From a virus, in IMG/VR virus record IMGVR_UViG_3300005614_000040, positions 1-64,000 of that record: a DNA stretch of 64,000 nt. One strand, 5' to 3'. A program made the translations under genes and the position numbers. This document shows, in pieces, positions 4,312 to 12,343 of this stretch (its first letter is position 1; every line of letters starts with the position of its first letter). The notes beneath the pieces are model-generated. The model saw nothing but the letters and a program-made list of their open reading frames with translations, was not told the origin of the DNA and ran no database searches.

Positions 4312-6738
4312 ATGGCAGCAGAAGCAACCGGACAACTTTGCCTTGCTCAGAACCAGTACGCTCTGACGCAGGACGCGACCAAGGGAACAGTTAGCGCCAT
4401 CGCTGGCCCTTTTTCTATTTCCCTGTCGGCCAACGACAGGCCCGTAGTGTACGACCGCCAAACGGATCGCTTCGTTCCGGTGGACATTCAGCGCGCCATT
4501 ACCCAGAACGCTTTTGTTCCTGAAGGCCACTACCTGGTGCTGGAAAACCCTTCCTTCAAATCCAACGGCGAACTGAACAAACCCAGTTCCGGCGTCAACA
4601 GTCCTGTCATTCTCGAAGTCGGGCGCAAAATTGTGATCCCTGGCCCCGCGACTTTCCCGCTTTGGCCCGGCCAGCTTGCCGAAGCCATCCCCGGCCATCA
4701 CCTCCGCTCGAACCAATACCTTGTGGTGCGCGTCTACAACGCTGACGAGGCGGCCAAGAATATCTCTGGCGGTGCGCCTGACGCGGCTGCGCCTGACGCG
4801 GCTGCGCCTGCTACAACCTTCACTCCCGGCGAACTCCTGGTTATCAAGGGCACCGAGAAGTCCTTCTACATCCCGACGACTGGATTCGAAGTCCTCAAGG
4901 ACGAAAAGGGCAGCTATGTCCGCGAAGCGCTCACCCTGGAACGGCTGGAGTACGCCATCCTGCTCGACGAGGACGGCAACAAGCGGTACGAAAAAGGCCC
5001 GCAGGTTGTGTTCCCAGAAGCCACCGAACGGTTCGTCGCCAAGGACAACACCATTAAGTTCAAGGCCATCGAACTCAACGACCAGATGGGTCTCTATATC
5101 AAGGTCATTGCCGACTACACGGAAGAGGGCCACAACTACGTGACGGGCGAAGAACTGTTCGTCACGGGCAAGCAAAAGCGGATTTACTACCCGCGCCCCG
5201 AACACGCGCTGATCGAATACAAAGACCCGACCAAGGACTTCATGCGCCAGCGCTACTACGGGATCACCATCCCTAAGGGCGAAGGTCGGTTTGTCCTCGA
5301 CAAGACAGCAGGCGAGATCAAGAAGGTCGAAGGGCCGATGATCTTCCTGCCCGACCCGCGCAACGAGGTTATCGTGCGCCGGGTGCTCGACGAGCGAACC
5401 GTCGATATGTGGTATCCCGGAAACGAGGAAGCGTTGACTTTCAACCGCACCCTTCGGTCGTTGGCCGAAGAGTCTACGTCGTACCTGGCGGACTCTGTGG
5501 TGCTGGGCGCGGCGGCTGACACTCAGCGCGGCATGAACCGGATGAACGCCAACAACATGGCGCTCACTGGTTCATTTGAAGGCTCGAAGATCGCGCGCGG
5601 GTCGAAGTTCACTCCTCCGCCGATGCTCACCCTCAACACCAAGTTCGACGGCGTACCTTCGATTCAGGTGTGGACGGGCTACGCTGTCCAAGTTGTGGAC
5701 AAATCGGGTGGGCGACGCGTAGTGGTCGGCCCGGCGACGATCCTCTTGGAGTACGACGAAACCCTCGAAGTCTTGGAACTTTCGACGGGCAAGCCGAAGA
5801 CCACCGACAACCTGAAGCGTGACGTGTACCTGCGCGTGGACAACAACCTGGTTTCCGACGTGGTTCGCGTCGAAAGCAAGGATTTGGTCGGCGTCGAGAT
5901 CAAGCTGTCCTATCGGGTCAACTTCCTCCGCGAGCACCAGGACAAGTGGTTCTCGGTCGAGAACTACGTCAAGTATCTGTGCGACCAGATGCGTTCTCAC
6001 CTGAAGGCCGCGCTCAAAAAGCGCAGCGTGAAGGACATCGTCGAGAGCGCCGCCGCAGAAGTCCGCGACGTGGTTTTGGGCGCACGGGGCGAGGGCCAGC
6101 GGCATCGGTTCTTTCCAGAAAATGGAATGGACGTTTACGATGTCGATGTGCTCGAAGTCAAGGTGTCCGACCCGGCCGTAGCTGCGTTGCTCAAGACGGT
6201 GCAAACCAAGTCGGTCGAGGGTGTTATCCAGTTGGCTGCTGATGAGCAGACACTCATCAACACCAAGCGCAAGACTGAGATCGACAAGGAAGTAGTCAGT
6301 CTGCAGACGGAGATCGCGCTCTACCGCCAGGAACACACCCAGAAGGTCAACGAGGCGTCGTCCGAAACGACACTGGCCGCCATCGCTGCTGAACTTAAGC
6401 AGAAGGAATCCCGGCTCAATGGCCAGGTGGCGGAGCAAGCGCAGTTGGATACCGTGGCTCAGTCCGCCTTGGATCGTCTCAAGGCCGAGGAAGATTACAC
6501 GCTCGCTCTGGACAAAGCGCGCGCTGAAATCTTCGCGCAAAAACTTGCAGCAGTCAGCCCGAACCTGATTGCGGCCATCACCACCATCGGCGACAACAAG
6601 CTGATGGCGCAAGTTACCGAAGCGCTGGCACCGTTGGCTATCGCAGATCGGGACGGCATCAACGCAGTAATGGAACGGCTATTCGCCGGAACTTCGATGC
6701 AGAGGGTTCTGGAGAACGTGAAGGGCCGCTCCAAGTAA
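4312..6738 (+). CDS. major vault protein (MVP)-like protein: vault repeats + SPFH-like shoulder + cap-helix coiled coil
   Basis: An AGGAGG ribosome-binding site precedes the ATG at 4312. Repeated ~55-aa modules carry the MVP repeat signature 'TGEELFVTGKQKRIYYPRPE' and 'PGELLVIKGTEKSFYIPTTG', which resemble the MVP motif 'TGEEWLVT..G.Y.P'. The segment 'FFPENGMDVYDVDVLEVKVSDP...SVEGVIQLAADEQ' matches the MVP shoulder region '[21 protein letters not shown]...QLAIEITTNSQE'. A long C-terminal coiled coil fits the cap-helix. Confidence 0.7.
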   Translation: MAAEATGQLCLAQNQYALTQDATKGTVSAIAGPFSISLSANDRPVVYDRQTDRFVPVDIQRAITQNAFVPEGHYLVLENPSFKSNGELNKPSSGVNSPVILEVGRKIVIPGPATFPLWPGQLAEAIPGHHLRSNQYLVVRVYNADEAAKNISGGAPDAAAPDAAAPATTFTPGELLVIKGTEKSFYIPTTGFEVLKDEKGSYVREALTLERLEYAILLDEDGNKRYEKGPQVVFPEATERFVAKDNTIKFKAIELNDQMGLYIKVIADYTEEGHNYVTGEELFVTGKQKRIYYPRPEHALIEYKDPTKDFMRQRYYGITIPKGEGRFVLDKTAGEIKKVEGPMIFLPDPRNEVIVRRVLDERTVDMWYPGNEEALTFNRTLRSLAEESTSYLADSVVLGAAADTQRGMNRMNANNMALTGSFEGSKIARGSKFTPPPMLTLNTKFDGVPSIQVWTGYAVQVVDKSGGRRVVVGPATILLEYDETLEVLELSTGKPKTTDNLKRDVYLRVDNNLVSDVVRVESKDLVGVEIKLSYRVNFLREHQDKWFSVENYVKYLCDQMRSHLKAALKKRSVKDIVESAAAEVRDVVLGARGEGQRHRFFPENGMDVYDVDVLEVKVSDPAVAALLKTVQTKSVEGVIQLAADEQTLINTKRKTEIDKEVVSLQTEIALYRQEHTQKVNEASSETTLAAIAAELKQKESRLNGQVAEQAQLDTVAQSALDRLKAEEDYTLALDKARAEIFAQKLAAVSPNLIAAITTIGDNKLMAQVTEALAPLAIADRDGINAVMERLFAGTSMQRVLENVKGRSK
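4774..4811 (+). repeat. 2.5 tandem copies of 15-bp unit gcgcctgacgcggct inside the MVP-like CDS (encodes APDAAAPDAAAPA)
   Basis: Direct tandem identity is read from the sequence. Confidence 0.6.
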
Positions 6739-6744
6739 AGGGAA

Positions 6745-6767
6745 GGGGGCGGTGCGGAGCCGCCCCC
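6745..6767 (+). terminator. GC-rich hairpin (8-bp stem GGGGGCGG/CCGCCCCC, 7-nt loop) immediately after MVP-like stop; no U-tract
   Basis: A perfect inverted repeat lies 7 nt after the stop codon. A TTGACA hexamer follows at 6773-6778. The hairpin could be an attenuator or mRNA-stability element rather than a strong terminator. Confidence 0.3.
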
Positions 6768-11433: not shown

Positions 11434-11564
11434 TGGTAAACGTGGTTGTAGTTTGCCTGCTTCTTATGGGTGCGGGCCTCGGAATCCTGGTTGGGATGTT
11501 CATCAACGAGTACTTCAACCGTTGGTCGAACAAGCTGTTGGATAGACTGGCAGGGAAGAAATGA
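11433..11564 (+). CDS. 44-aa single-pass membrane peptide, translationally coupled between permease and ATPase
   Basis: Its ATG overlaps the permease TGA in a TGATG arrangement. The peptide 'MMVNVVVVCLLLMGAGLGILVGMF...' is hydrophobic, and its stop overlaps the ATPase start. Confidence 0.35.
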   Translation: MVNVVVVCLLLMGAGLGILVGMFINEYFNRWSNKLLDRLAGKK

Positions 11565-12343
11565 TCTACACCGAAGGTGATGTCCTCCTCCACATCGAAG
11601 ACCTGACCAAAGAGTATGACGGCCATCTCGTGCTCAAGAAGGTCAATGCCGTGATCCGTGATATCCGCGTGCCCGGCCAAACCAAAGGCCAGGTAGTAGG
11701 GTTCATCGGCCCTAGCGGGATCGGCAAGACGACCTGCTGCCGCTGCATGGCGGGGTTCGAAACGCCCACGTCCGGCCGGGTGGTGATGGATGGCCTCGAC
11801 CGACCGATCCGCGCGGGCGAGGTCGGTGTGGTAGCTCAGAACTACCCGCTGTTCGACCACCGCACCGTATTCAGCAACCTGATGCTGGCCGCGCGCAAAT
11901 CCTTCCCCGAGAAGGACGCCCACGACAAGGTCGTAGCTTACCTGGCTGACTTCGGGCTGAGTGAGATCGCCCACAAATATCCTAAAAAAATATCTGGCGG
12001 CCAGCGACAAAGGTGTGCTATAATACAACAAATCCTAGCCAAGCAGCACATCATACTCATGGACGAACCCTTCTCCGGGCTTGATCCAATAGCCAAGAAG
12101 AAGACGGCCGCGCTGATCGACCAAATCGCCGACATGGACGAAATGAACACCATCGTCATTGTCAGCCACGATATCGCCGCTGTAGTGAGTTGCTGTGACC
12201 ACGTTTGGGCGCTCGGCCGCGATCACGACGCGCAGGGCAATGTGATCCCAGGTGCCTACATCGTCGAGAACTACAACCTGATGGACATGGGCGCGGGGCC
12301 GGACGTAGTAAACCTCCTCACTGAAAGGTTCGCAACACTATGA
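11561..12343 (+). CDS. ABC transporter ATP-binding protein (SsuB/TauB/NrtD-like)
   Basis: It has Walker A 'GPSGIGKTT', the ABC signature 'ISGGQRQR' and Walker B 'ILMDEPFSGLD'. Confidence 0.85.
   Translation: MIYTEGDVLLHIEDLTKEYDGHLVLKKVNAVIRDIRVPGQTKGQVVGFIGPSGIGKTTCCRCMAGFETPTSGRVVMDGLDRPIRAGEVGVVAQNYPLFDHRTVFSNLMLAARKSFPEKDAHDKVVAYLADFGLSEIAHKYPKKISGGQRQRCAIIQQILAKQHIILMDEPFSGLDPIAKKKTAALIDQIADMDEMNTIVIVSHDIAAVVSCCDHVWALGRDHDAQGNVIPGAYIVENYNLMDMGAGPDVVNLLTERFATL

What the first reader, a model, noticed from the sequence alone, without database searches (positions are those of the whole stretch)
4312..12343. Eight-gene cassette in the early arm: MVP-like cage + coiled-coil pair + OmpA-anchored binding protein + ABC importer
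Genes 4312-12343 are tightly packed. Several stop/start junctions overlap (TGATG, ATGA), most have Shine-Dalgarno sites, and all are co-oriented. The products are an MVP-like protein, a soluble coiled-coil protein, a two-TM coiled-coil protein, a membrane-anchored periplasmic protein with a C-terminal OmpA_C peptidoglycan-binding domain, a small Zn-ribbon protein, a NitT/TauT-type permease, a 44-aa membrane peptide and an ABC ATPase. None has a conventional phage-replication or virion role. The combination of cytoplasmic cage, inner-membrane coiled-coil anchors, a peptidoglycan-tethered periplasmic binder and an importer is not a described system. It could be a phage-borne envelope-spanning module for host takeover, superinfection exclusion or nutrient and signal import during infection.
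Basis: inference. Interest (0 to 1): 0.82.

Follow-up and report, generated by a model that had tools for sequence, protein, structure and literature searches.

The report
Phage vault-like gene beside borrowed transporter operon
The eight genes are real, but they are two units placed side by side in this phage: a free-standing vault-protein-like gene, and a nutrient-importer operon with membrane-associated coiled-coil partners that is widespread in soil bacteria, both already noted in the literature and neither tested experimentally.

Summary
Eight co-oriented, tightly packed genes lie at 4312-12343 of a ~74-kb phage, between PolA/integrase and clamp-loader/ERF/SSB genes.

The single-system interpretation does not hold. 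The cassette has two parts.

**(A) The MVP-like gene.** This is a solo gene in 159 of 160 related loci examined, with no conserved neighbour.

**(B) A five-gene operon, g2-g3-g4-g6-g8.**
- Its products are a coiled-coil protein, a 2-TM protein that may be PspA-like, a TM-anchored NitT/TauT-fold binding protein ending in OmpA_C, a permease and an ABC ATPase.
- The same order recurs in bacterial chromosomes and large phages. In 80 metagenome loci with enough flank, g3 was present in 68/69, g6 in 49/49 and g8 in 49/49. MVP was present in 0/80.
- The Zn-ribbon gene (g5) is an occasional add-on. The 44-aa ORF (g7) is not conserved.

A very similar operon theme (PspA, TM-Snf7, PBPb-OmpA, permease, ABC ATPase) was described by Ravi et al. 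2024. Phage MVPs were described by Santos et al. 2023.

What is new: phages carry the operon, it sits next to MVP in two related phages, and both occur in at least six phage genomes. Function is untested.

The parts
4312..6738 (+). g1: MVP-like protein, 808 aa, with vault repeat, shoulder and cap-helix-like regions. It is a separate unit from g2-g8.
   Evidence: Pfam MVP_shoulder 4.6e-22 and Vault_3 4.2e-10. phmmer against PDB MVP chains gives E about 1e-12, aligning residues 429-778 to MVP 437-808. More than 6,400 homologues exist. It is solo in 159 of 160 related loci.
6818..7411 (+). g2: soluble coiled-coil protein, 197 aa. It has a conserved N-terminal peptide, a Pro/Ala-rich linker, a helical C-terminal half and a C-terminal LLK/LLQ motif. 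First gene of the conserved operon.
   Evidence: A g2-like ORF lies directly upstream of g3 in 72 distinct loci. There is no specific family signal, only coiled-coil noise plus a sub-threshold PspA match at E 0.005.
7413..8501 (+). g3: membrane-anchored helical protein, 362 aa. It has a 2-TM hairpin at about residues 21-72, then three long helices predicted to face the cytoplasm. It may be a divergent PspA/ESCRT-III relative.
8519..10378 (+). g4: signal-anchor TM helix, NitT/TauT-fold substrate-binding domain (about residues 60-480), and a C-terminal OmpA_C peptidoglycan-binding domain (about residues 500-619).
   Evidence: Pfam OmpA 4e-14. The model has pLDDT 82. Foldseek matches NrtA 2g29, TauA 6ssy, CmpA and SsuA. 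The peptidoglycan-binding motif GYTDNTGS...NxxLSxxRA is visible in the sequence. More than 2,300 homologues exist.
10487..10666 (+). g5: 59-aa zinc-ribbon protein. An accessory gene with variable presence and position.
   Evidence: The motif CxCxxC..HWE..C(K/R)TC is conserved in L264, L184, L186, L176 and L181. It is present in only 3 of 80 metagenome loci. It lies after the ATPase in L181 and between permease and ATPase in L165.
10666..11433 (+). g6: ABC importer permease, 255 aa, about 5-6 TM helices, with an EAA-loop-like segment.
   Evidence: NCBIfam NtrB 1.1e-8 and SaoP 5.3e-7, both below cut-off. Homologues carry weak or faint BPD_transp_1 marks. It lies downstream of g4 in 49 of 49 eligible loci.
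11430..11564 (+). g7: 44-aa hydrophobic ORF. A lineage-specific small ORF of uncertain reality.
   Evidence: The ORF overlaps both neighbours by ATGA. There is no homologue outside near-identical contigs. A different ORF occupies this position in L264.
11561..12343 (+). g8: ABC ATPase, 260 aa, with Walker A, signature, Walker B and H-loop motifs intact.
   Evidence: Pfam ABC_tran 5.1e-25. The motifs GPSGIGKT, ISGGQRQR, ILMDEP and VSHD are visible in the sequence. It lies downstream in 49 of 49 eligible loci.
2919..3953 (+). Context: tyrosine recombinase (integrase) upstream of the cassette.
   Evidence: Pfam Phage_integrase 2.2e-12.
12855..13781 (+). Context: clamp-loader-like AAA protein downstream. 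The cassette sits inside the replication arm.
   Evidence: Pfam DNA_pol3_delta2 2.6e-16. ERF, SSB, PD-(D/E)XK nuclease and primase-helicase follow.

Best explanation
The region holds two independent units that this phage lineage has placed next to each other.

**Unit A (g1)** is an MVP-like protein. Its family is scattered as a single gene through many bacteria and many large phages. Its role is unknown.

**Unit B (g2, g3, g4, g6, g8, plus the add-ons g5 and g7)** is a self-contained operon that phages share with soil and peat bacteria. I infer the phages took it from the bacteria.

Inferred mechanism of unit B:
- g4 is held in the inner membrane by an uncleaved signal anchor and tied to peptidoglycan by its OmpA_C domain.
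- This arrangement presents a NitT/TauT-type binding domain in the periplasm.
- That domain delivers a small solute to the g6 permease, powered by the g8 ATPase. This is a type-I ABC importer with a tethered binding protein.
- On the cytoplasmic face, g3 (anchored by two TM helices and possibly PspA/ESCRT-III-like) and the soluble coiled-coil g2 form a membrane-associated assembly. It would couple membrane stabilisation or remodelling to the transporter.
- The phage would express the operon alongside its replication genes, to sustain or reshape host envelope function and solute uptake during infection.

Shown here: the gene content, the folds, the domain order, and the recurrence and independence of the two units.

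Inferred only: import direction, substrate, contact between g2/g3 and the transporter, timing of expression, and benefit to the phage.
For: **Unit B recurs in a fixed order.**
- Chromosomal loci L168 and L169 lie between cysS/gatCA and a sigma54 two-component system.
- L184 and L186 are the closest chromosomal copies found, at 63-70% identity for g3, g4, g6 and g8 (g2 40-44%), and they include g5. They lie beside Hsp70-like, cyclophilin-like and CspA-like ORFs, recognised by sequence motifs by eye.
- L216, L237 and L256 lie beside HisRS, fucosidase and GH30 genes.
- Twelve IMG/VR contigs carry it, as does the 462-kb phage LR756500.1.
- In 80 metagenome loci with enough flank, g3 was present in 68/69, g6 in 49/49 and g8 in 49/49.
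- g2-like ORFs lie upstream of g3 in 72 distinct loci.

**The g4 fold and domains** are supported. The ATPase and permease are supported.

**g3 has some PspA-like signal**. One homologue carries a weak PspA_IM30 mark.

**Unit A is independent.**
- No g2-g7 homologue lies within 10 kb in 160 MVP loci. Only one locus has the unit-B ATPase.
- MVP has no conserved neighbour.
- The closest viral MVPs all have different neighbours.

**Published precedent:** an operon of PspA, PBPb-OmpA, permease, ABC ATPase and TM-Snf7.
Against: - Adjacency of MVP and unit B is kept in a related but clearly diverged phage, L264.
- Both units also sit in the same genome in at least four further phages, 10.8 kb to roughly 355 kb apart. 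A functional link therefore cannot be excluded.
- g2 has no family signal at all.
- A binding protein tethered at both ends is unusual for a plain importer and could instead act as a sensor.
- The direction of transfer (host to phage) is inferred from distribution, not from a phylogeny.
Confidence: 0.6

Rival explanations
1. All eight genes form one envelope-spanning system, in which the MVP-like protein forms a cytoplasmic or membrane-apposed cage that works with the coiled-coil pair, the peptidoglycan-tethered binder and the ABC importer.
For: - The eight-gene order is conserved in L264 at 65-87% protein identity.
- MVP and unit B co-reside in at least six phage genomes, including the distant AT-rich huge phage LR756500.1.
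- MVP is rare overall: 244 of 2.9 million IMG/VR contigs and 3 of 50,697 GenBank phage records.
- One MVP homologue also hits Band_7.
- Band-7/PspA operon links are published.
Against: - Unit B occurs without MVP within 10 kb in 80 of 80 metagenome loci, in all 12 viral module loci, and in all chromosomal loci.
- MVP occurs without unit B in 159 of 160 loci.
- Only 1 of 12 module-bearing IMG/VR contigs appeared in the two MVP scans.
- Where both are present they are usually 10-350 kb apart.
- Co-residence could simply reflect a shared host clade and gene pool.
Confidence: 0.12
2. Unit B is not mainly a nutrient importer. It would be a sensing or mechanotransmission device. The doubly tethered binding domain would report a periplasmic ligand or the state of the cell wall. 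The ABC ATPase cycle would then drive or regulate assembly of g2 and g3 on the membrane, giving an envelope-stress or repair system analogous to FtsEX-EnvC or the Psp response.
For: - g4 is anchored both in the inner membrane and to peptidoglycan.
- g2 and g3 are invariably linked to the transporter.
- Ravi et al. propose a link between membrane remodelling and solute transport for the similar operon.
Against: - The permease and ATPase resemble type-I importers of the NtrB/SaoP and NitT/TauT type. They do not resemble FtsX or MacB-type proteins.
- The helical domain of g3 is predicted to be cytoplasmic, unlike EnvC.
- No output domain is present.
Confidence: 0.15
3. The cassette is an anti-phage or superinfection-exclusion system. 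It would be Zorya-like, with a TM protein carrying a long cytoplasmic coiled coil paired with a TM protein carrying a peptidoglycan-binding domain.
For: - PADLOC gives domain-level hits: ZorB models match the OmpA domain of g4 at 2e-7, PbeC matches g2 at 5.5e-7, and mad3 matches g8.
- The position next to an integrase is typical of lysogenic-conversion genes.
Against: - All PADLOC hits cover only generic domains (OmpA_C, coiled coil, ABC ATPase).
- g3 has 2 TM helices and no MotA/ZorA-like channel.
- The TM helix of g4 has no conserved Asp.
- Chromosomal copies sit among housekeeping genes, not in defence islands.
Confidence: 0.05
4. The region is a chance collection of unrelated morons with no functional unit.
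For: - g7 and g5 vary between loci.
- Phage copies are interrupted by unrelated small ORFs.
Against: The five-gene core keeps the same order in well over 90 loci, across bacterial chromosomes and phages.
Confidence: 0.03

Closest known systems
PspA / TM-Snf7 / PBPb-OmpA / permease / ABC-ATPase operon theme of Ravi et al., mSystems 2024 (PMC11237479). The example is OGG56892.1 from Candidatus Handelsmanbacteria.
   Same: The component list matches: a soluble coiled-coil protein, a membrane-anchored divergent ESCRT-III-like protein, a protein that binds both solute and peptidoglycan, an ABC permease and an ABC ATPase.
   Different: - The published order is PspA, PBPb-OmpA, permease, ATPase, TM-Snf7, AAA+. 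Here it is cc, TM-cc, PBP-OmpA, permease, ATPase.
- No Vps4-like AAA+ gene is in the window.
- I could not confirm homology of g2 to PspA, and g3 is only weakly PspA-like.
- The published example is bacterial, described only by comparative genomics, and not reported from phages.
NitT/TauT-family ABC importers (NrtABCD, CmpABCD, TauABC, SsuABC, ThiY-type)
   Same: - The binding domain of g4 has this fold.
- The permease is closest to NtrB and SaoP.
- The ATPase is typical of this type.
   Different: - The binding protein is TM-anchored and carries a C-terminal OmpA_C domain.
- No sequence-level family match exists for the binding domain.
- The invariant residues are rich in Asp, Glu and Trp, unlike the nitrate or bicarbonate sites. 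This comparison is from my own knowledge and was not tested.
- Two coiled-coil partners are obligately linked.
Major vault protein (eukaryotic vault shell) and its bacterial and phage homologues (Daly et al. 2013, PMC3762200; Santos et al. 2023, bioRxiv 10.1101/2023.11.10.566534)
   Same: - It has the shoulder domain, a vault repeat and a cap-helix-like region.
- Its length of about 810 aa is typical of the homologues found here.
   Different: - Only about 350 residues align to solved MVP at the sequence level.
- Cage formation is unproven for any prokaryotic or phage homologue.
- No TEP1 or PARP4 homologue was identified among the ORFs scanned.
PspA / Vipp1 / ESCRT-III membrane-remodelling proteins
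   Same: - g3 has a long helical hairpin plus further helices.
- There are sub-threshold PspA_IM30 hits in 19 of 61 family members.
- A DPIGIL motif aligns to the EDPxKL start of PspA helix 1.
   Different: - g3 is anchored by a 2-TM hairpin rather than an amphipathic helix.
- Statistical support for homology is weak.
MotB / ZorB-type stators (TM helix plus OmpA-like peptidoglycan anchor)
   Same: g4 has an inner-membrane TM helix plus a C-terminal OmpA_C domain.
   Different: - A 420-residue binding-protein domain lies between the two.
- The TM helix has no conserved Asp.
- There is no MotA or ZorA partner.

Membership tests
Major vault protein family | MVP shoulder domain | tested here: met
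   PF11978 E 4.6e-22, 78.7 bits against a cut-off of 25, residues 512-620.
Major vault protein family | Vault repeat domains | tested here: met
   PF17795 Vault_3, 40 bits against a cut-off of 28.8, at residues 458-502. The N-terminal 430 residues were not resolved into repeats.
Major vault protein family | Cap-helix region following the shoulder | tested here: met
   The phmmer alignment to rat MVP runs through residues 621-778, matching MVP 647-808.
Major vault protein family | Assembly into a closed 39-fold half-vault cage | not testable with these tools
   Needs expression and EM.
NitT/TauT-type ABC importer | Class II periplasmic binding fold of the NrtA/TauA/SsuA type | tested here: met
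   Foldseek gives NrtA E 3.6e-9 (TMt 0.60), TauA TMt 0.74, plus CmpA and SsuA, on a model with pLDDT 82.
NitT/TauT-type ABC importer | Type-I importer permease (BPD_transp_1 with EAA loop) | tested here: inconclusive
   There is no Pfam hit for g6 itself. NtrB 1.1e-8 and SaoP 5.3e-7 fall below cut-offs. Homologues carry weak or faint BPD_transp_1 marks. An EAA-like segment, LAKTLRMGPWETLFEVV, is seen by eye.
NitT/TauT-type ABC importer | ABC ATPase with intact motifs | tested here: met
   ABC_tran 5.1e-25. Walker A, signature, Walker B and H-loop are present in the sequence.
NitT/TauT-type ABC importer | Known substrate class | not testable with these tools
   No sequence-level match to any characterised binding protein.
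OmpA_C peptidoglycan-binding domain | OmpA_C fold with the peptidoglycan-binding motif | tested here: met
   PF00691 4e-14. YiaD and PA0833 match at 1e-13 to 1e-23. The motif TDNTGS...NxxLSxxRA is present.
PspA/IM30-ESCRT-III superfamily (g3) | Significant sequence or profile match to PspA_IM30 or Snf7 | tested here: inconclusive
   - 19 of 61 family members hit PspA_IM30, best E 4.2e-5, none reported above the gathering score.
- The window protein itself has no hit.
- hhalign against E. coli PspA gives probability 1.2%.
- The profile search against PDB finds no PspA.
PspA/IM30-ESCRT-III superfamily (g3) | Helical hairpin core fold | tested here: inconclusive
PspA/IM30-ESCRT-III superfamily (g2) | Match to PspA_IM30 | tested here: not met
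   Only TIGR02977 at E 0.0046. A scan of 45 family members gives generic coiled-coil families, with PspA not among the 25 most frequent listed.
Ravi et al. PspA-Snf7-ABC-PBPb/OmpA operon | PBPb+OmpA protein with adjacent permease and ABC ATPase | tested here: met
   g4, g6 and g8. The linkage is conserved in 49 of 49 loci.
Ravi et al. PspA-Snf7-ABC-PBPb/OmpA operon | PspA plus a membrane-anchored divergent Snf7 | tested here: inconclusive
   The architectures fit: a soluble coiled coil and a TM-anchored helical protein. Homology is unproven.
Ravi et al. PspA-Snf7-ABC-PBPb/OmpA operon | Linked double AAA+ (Vps4-like) ATPase | tested here: not met
   The window has only a clamp-loader AAA downstream. 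The chromosomal loci L168 and L169 have none. AAA genes lie 3-6 kb upstream in some phage loci, but these were not analysed.
Zorya / MotAB-type stator | MotA/ZorA-like multi-TM channel partner and conserved Asp in the B-subunit TM helix | tested here: not met
   g3 has 2 TM helices and no MotA or ZorA hit. The g4 TM helix lacks Asp. PADLOC ZorB hits cover only OmpA_C.

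The most novel reading that the evidence does not exclude
The MVP-like protein and the coiled-coil/ABC operon are functionally coupled in phages.

In this reading, an SPFH-related MVP cage would dock on the inner membrane over a patch organised by g2 and g3 (the latter possibly PspA-like) and the peptidoglycan-tethered importer. 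Together they would form a phage-built membrane compartment for solute capture or envelope control.

This would be the first functional context for any prokaryotic or viral vault protein.

The evidence that leaves this open:
- The two units are adjacent in two diverged phages.
- They co-reside in at least six phage genomes, although MVP is very rare among phages overall.
Probability: 0.12. Interest if true: 0.85.

Novelty: new variant of a known kind. Interest (0 to 1): 0.5.

Why it matters
- **An untested operon.** Neither bacterial vault-protein homologues nor the ABC operon with a peptidoglycan-tethered binder have any experimental function. The finding shows the operon is common in soil and peat metagenomes and in bacterial chromosomes. 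The g3 family alone has at least 943 clusters at 50% identity and no Pfam model.
- **Phage carriage.** Phages ranging from 74 kb to over 400 kb carry it.
- **A testable lead on vault proteins.** The operon tends to share genomes with the rare phage MVP gene. That gives a concrete hypothesis about what prokaryotic vault proteins do, and a compact 8-kb construct to test it with.
- **A correction to the literature.** MVP-like genes occur in at least 244 IMG/VR viral contigs, not just the two gut phages so far reported.

Tried and rejected
1. **DNA similarity.** Megablast of the cassette and of the late region against GenBank phages found nothing.
2. **A fusion that was not one.** I first read L165 as a zinc-ribbon/ATPase fusion. 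A frame check showed the g5-like ORF (13057-13263) is separate from the ATPase, so that argument is withdrawn.
3. **Contig-length coincidences.** I used equal "longest contig" lengths to guess that MVP and g4 share contigs.
   - The 11,601-bp case was false: L265 is the whole contig and has no MVP.
   - The 25,614-bp and 49,002-bp cases were verified.
   - The 894,233, 364,142, 234,036 and 90,791-bp cases were not checked.
4. **PDB profile searches.** Profiles of g2 and g3 gave only coiled-coil noise.
5. **PADLOC.** Hits cover generic domains only, so a defence-system reading was rejected.
   - The afdb50 fold library was unavailable.
   - BFVD holds no full-length counterpart of g4.
7. **Host taxonomy.** The host of the chromosomal copies could not be identified.
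8. **Expression signals.** Promoter and terminator scans were uninformative.

Full report
**1. What is in the window**

The window is part of a ~74.5-kb metagenomic contig (ENA ERZ27252105 k141_4674152). A near-identical 12.4-kb Logan contig also exists. It is a phage.
- The + strand (1 to about 31.6 kb) carries PolA, a tyrosine recombinase, a clamp-loader-like AAA protein, an HNH endonuclease, ERF, SSB, a PD-(D/E)XK nuclease and a primase-helicase.
- The - strand beyond 31.8 kb carries large late genes, including a recognisable major head protein.
- No GenBank phage is similar at the DNA level.

**2. The observation**

Eight co-oriented ORFs fill 4312-12343. The gap before g1 is 26 nt and the gaps between genes are 79, 1, 17, 108, -1, -4 and -4 nt. 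Most starts have a Shine-Dalgarno-like motif. Promoter-like and terminator-like sites are at background level.

Refined coordinates are g1 4312-6738, g2 6818-7411, g3 7413-8501, g4 8519-10378, g5 10487-10666, g6 10666-11433, g7 11430-11564 and g8 11561-12343.

| Gene | Product | Evidence |
|---|---|---|
| g1 | MVP-like | MVP_shoulder 4.6e-22 and Vault_3 4.2e-10, above Pfam thresholds. phmmer to rat/human MVP about 1e-12 across the last repeats, shoulder and cap-helix |
| g2 | Soluble coiled-coil protein | No specific family |
| g3 | 2-TM hairpin, then three long helices | AF2 model |
| g4 | N-terminal TM helix, ~420-residue domain, OmpA_C | OmpA 4e-14. Model pLDDT 82; Foldseek to NrtA, TauA, CmpA, SsuA, i.e. 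the NitT/TauT binding-protein fold |
| g5 | CxCxxC...CxxC zinc ribbon | |
| g6 | Permease | Weak NtrB and SaoP matches |
| g7 | 44-aa hydrophobic ORF | |
| g8 | ABC ATPase with intact motifs | ABC_tran 5e-25 |

**3. Is it one unit? The MVP gene**

MVP-like proteins are abundant.
- More than 6,400 database hits were found.
- 409 loci were found among GTDB species representatives, in Myxococcota, Cytophagales, Vulcanimicrobiota, CPR and others.
- 244 IMG/VR viral contigs carry one, as do the huge phages LR756500, LR756501 and LR756503.

I fetched 160 of these loci with ±10 kb of flank.
- tblastn found no homologue of g2, g3, the g4 binding domain, g5, g6 or g7. Only one locus (L090) had a g8-like ATPase of the same clade.
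- Clustering all the neighbours found no conserved partner.
- The nine closest viral MVPs (50-62% identity) each have different neighbours.

MVP is therefore a mobile solo gene.

**4. The g2-g8 part**

Searching with g4 gave the opposite picture. It has more than 2,300 full-length homologues. Wherever flanks are available, the same order recurs: cc, TM-cc, PBP-OmpA, permease, ATPase.
- Bacterial chromosomes carry it.
  - L168 and L169 lie between cysS/gatCA and a sigma54 two-component system.
  - L216, L237 and L256 lie next to HisRS, MqnC-like, fucosidase, GH30 and MFS genes.
  - L184 and L186 lie next to ORFs whose sequences look like Hsp70, cyclophilin and CspA, recognised by eye.
- Twelve IMG/VR contigs of 48-405 kb carry it.
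- Several phage-like metagenome contigs carry it.
- The 462-kb phage LR756500.1 carries it.

In 80 metagenome loci, counting only those with enough flank:

| Gene | Found by tblastn |
|---|---|
| g3 upstream of g4 | 68 of 69 |
| g6 downstream | 49 of 49 |
| g8 downstream | 49 of 49 |
| g2 upstream | 49 of 69 |
| g5 | 3 of 80 |
| MVP within 10 kb | 0 of 80 |

tblastn undercounts g2. A positional search found a g2-like ORF upstream of g3 in 72 distinct sequences. It is about 220 aa, with an N-terminal MSNKFIDxIKHxIIEDDDP motif and a C-terminal LLQG.

The other points on unit B are these.
- Chromosomal copies are compact five-gene or six-gene operons. Phage copies are often interrupted by unrelated small ORFs.
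- g5 is found in the window's closest relatives and occupies other positions elsewhere.
- g7 has no counterpart even in the closest relative.
- The closest chromosomal copies found (L184, L186) are 63-70% identical to the window's g3, g4, g6 and g8, while g2 is 40-44% identical. They include g5. This fits capture from a host lineage, although no phylogeny was made and the taxon could not be named.

**5. Relation between the two units**

The two units are adjacent in the window and in L264. L264 is a related phage with identities of MVP 65%, g3 87%, g4 70%, g8 74%, clamp loader 71% and ERF 58%. It has extra DUF8296 genes inserted after MVP and after g3.

The two units also share a genome, but not a neighbourhood, in four more phages:

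| Phage contig | Separation |
|---|---|
| IMGVR_UViG_3300036876_000145 | 10.8 kb |
| SRR29078247_3758 | about 15 kb |
| ERZ25039521 contig_67776 | about 20 kb |
| LR756500.1 | roughly 355 kb |

MVP is very rare among phages, at about 8e-5 of IMG/VR contigs and 3 of 50,697 GenBank phage records. This co-residence therefore looks non-random. It could still reflect a shared host clade and gene pool. Only 1 of the 12 module-bearing IMG/VR contigs appeared in my two MVP scans.

I conclude there are two separable units with a possible loose association.

**6. What the coiled-coil proteins are**

The g3 family is large and uniform. A full HMM search found 943 clusters at 50% identity, 632 of them with E ≤ 1e-10. 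In the best 150 listed, most members are 300-390 aa. It has no Pfam model. Conserved motifs include FWxxPEGK before the TM hairpin, DPIGIL at the start of the helical domain, and a C-terminal DYxDLL.

The evidence for a PspA relationship is mixed.
- For: 19 of 61 diverse members give sub-threshold PspA_IM30 hits (best 4.2e-5). The next most frequent family reaches 6 of 61.
- For: one homologue has a weak precomputed PspA_IM30 mark.
- Against: the profile finds no PspA in PDB.

So g3 is plausibly, but not demonstrably, a membrane-anchored PspA/ESCRT-III relative. g2 shows no specific signal.

**7. Comparison with what is known**

Ravi et al. [quoted passage not shown] They propose a link between membrane remodelling and solute transport.
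- The component list matches g2-g8.
- The gene order differs.
- The AAA+ partner is absent here.

Phage MVPs were reported for two gut phages by Santos et al. 2023. Bacterial MVP homologues were reported by Daly et al. 2013. Neither system has an experimentally established function.

**8. Mechanism, with the basis for each step**

Shown here:
- g4 has a TM anchor, an NitT/TauT-fold binding domain and a peptidoglycan-binding domain.
- g6 and g8 look like a type-I importer core.
- g2 and g3 are invariably co-encoded with them.

Inferred:
- g4 delivers a small solute to g6 and g8.
- g3 sits N-in/C-in, with its helical domain on the cytoplasmic face together with g2 (from the positive-inside pattern).
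- g2 and g3 stabilise or remodel the membrane around the transporter, or regulate it.
- The phage uses the operon during replication to maintain envelope function or uptake.

The invariant residues of the binding domain are rich in Asp, Glu and Trp. This hints at a cationic ligand, but it was not tested.

**9. Verdict**

There is a real recurrent module, but it has five core genes rather than eight. It occurs widely in bacterial chromosomes, so the phage copies were probably captured from hosts. Its theme was already noted in the literature.
- MVP is a separate, already-reported kind of phage gene.
- The phage carriage of the operon and its repeated co-residence with MVP are new and worth a targeted test.

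Noticed in passing
window 4312-6738; loci L085-L164, L272-L318: MVP-like genes occur in at least 244 IMG/VR viral contigs, many of 100-500 kb, and in huge phages LR756500, LR756501 and LR756503. This is far more than the two gut phages reported as the first viral MVPs.
   Followed up: partly
window 7413-8501; alignments A5, A6: The g3 family has at least 943 clusters at 50% identity, and most of the 150 best members listed are 300-390 aa. It has no Pfam model. Conserved motifs are FWxxPEGK, DPIGIL and a C-terminal DYxDLL.
   Followed up: partly
window 7390-7411 and 8480-8501; alignments A3, A4, A7: g2 and g3 both end in a conserved acidic/hydrophobic LL(K/Q) motif (…SELLKG and …DYSELLK). This recalls the C-terminal MIM peptides of ESCRT-III that bind Vps4. 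The comparison is from memory and was not tested.
   Followed up: no
L264 1735-2094 and 3842-4201; L166, L174, L176, L178, L182 between g4, g6 and g8: Phage copies of the operon are interrupted by unrelated small ORFs. L264 has two DUF8296 genes, and other phage loci carry 60-190-aa ORFs. Chromosomal copies are compact.
   Followed up: partly
window 13822-14325: An HNH_3 endonuclease gene lies between the clamp-loader and ERF genes. It is absent at the same position in the related phage L264, so it looks like a mobile insertion.
   Followed up: no
window 31831-54811, - strand: Eight large late-region proteins, including a 2082-aa ORF at 31831-38079, have no PHROG match at 1e-5. Of the ten large proteins scanned, only the major head protein (61341-62330) is recognised.
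   Followed up: no
L166 3595-5172; L265 245-1828; L268 436-1932 and 2964-3857: In one phage clade, AAA (PF00004) genes and a DNA ligase lie 3-6 kb upstream of the operon. A conserved 246-272-aa ORF sits directly before g2. The published operon theme includes an AAA+ partner, so these may be relevant.
   Followed up: no
alignments A3 and A4 against PDB 8qox_B: The same PDB chain, 8qox_B ('Conserved membrane protein', 475 aa), is the top or near-top weak hit for both the g3 profile (E 0.033) and the g2 profile (E 0.017).
   Followed up: no
window 2919-3953: The tyrosine recombinase lies inside the replication arm, between PolA and the cassette. The longest ORF begins with TTG. No tRNA gene is present anywhere in the window.
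   Followed up: no
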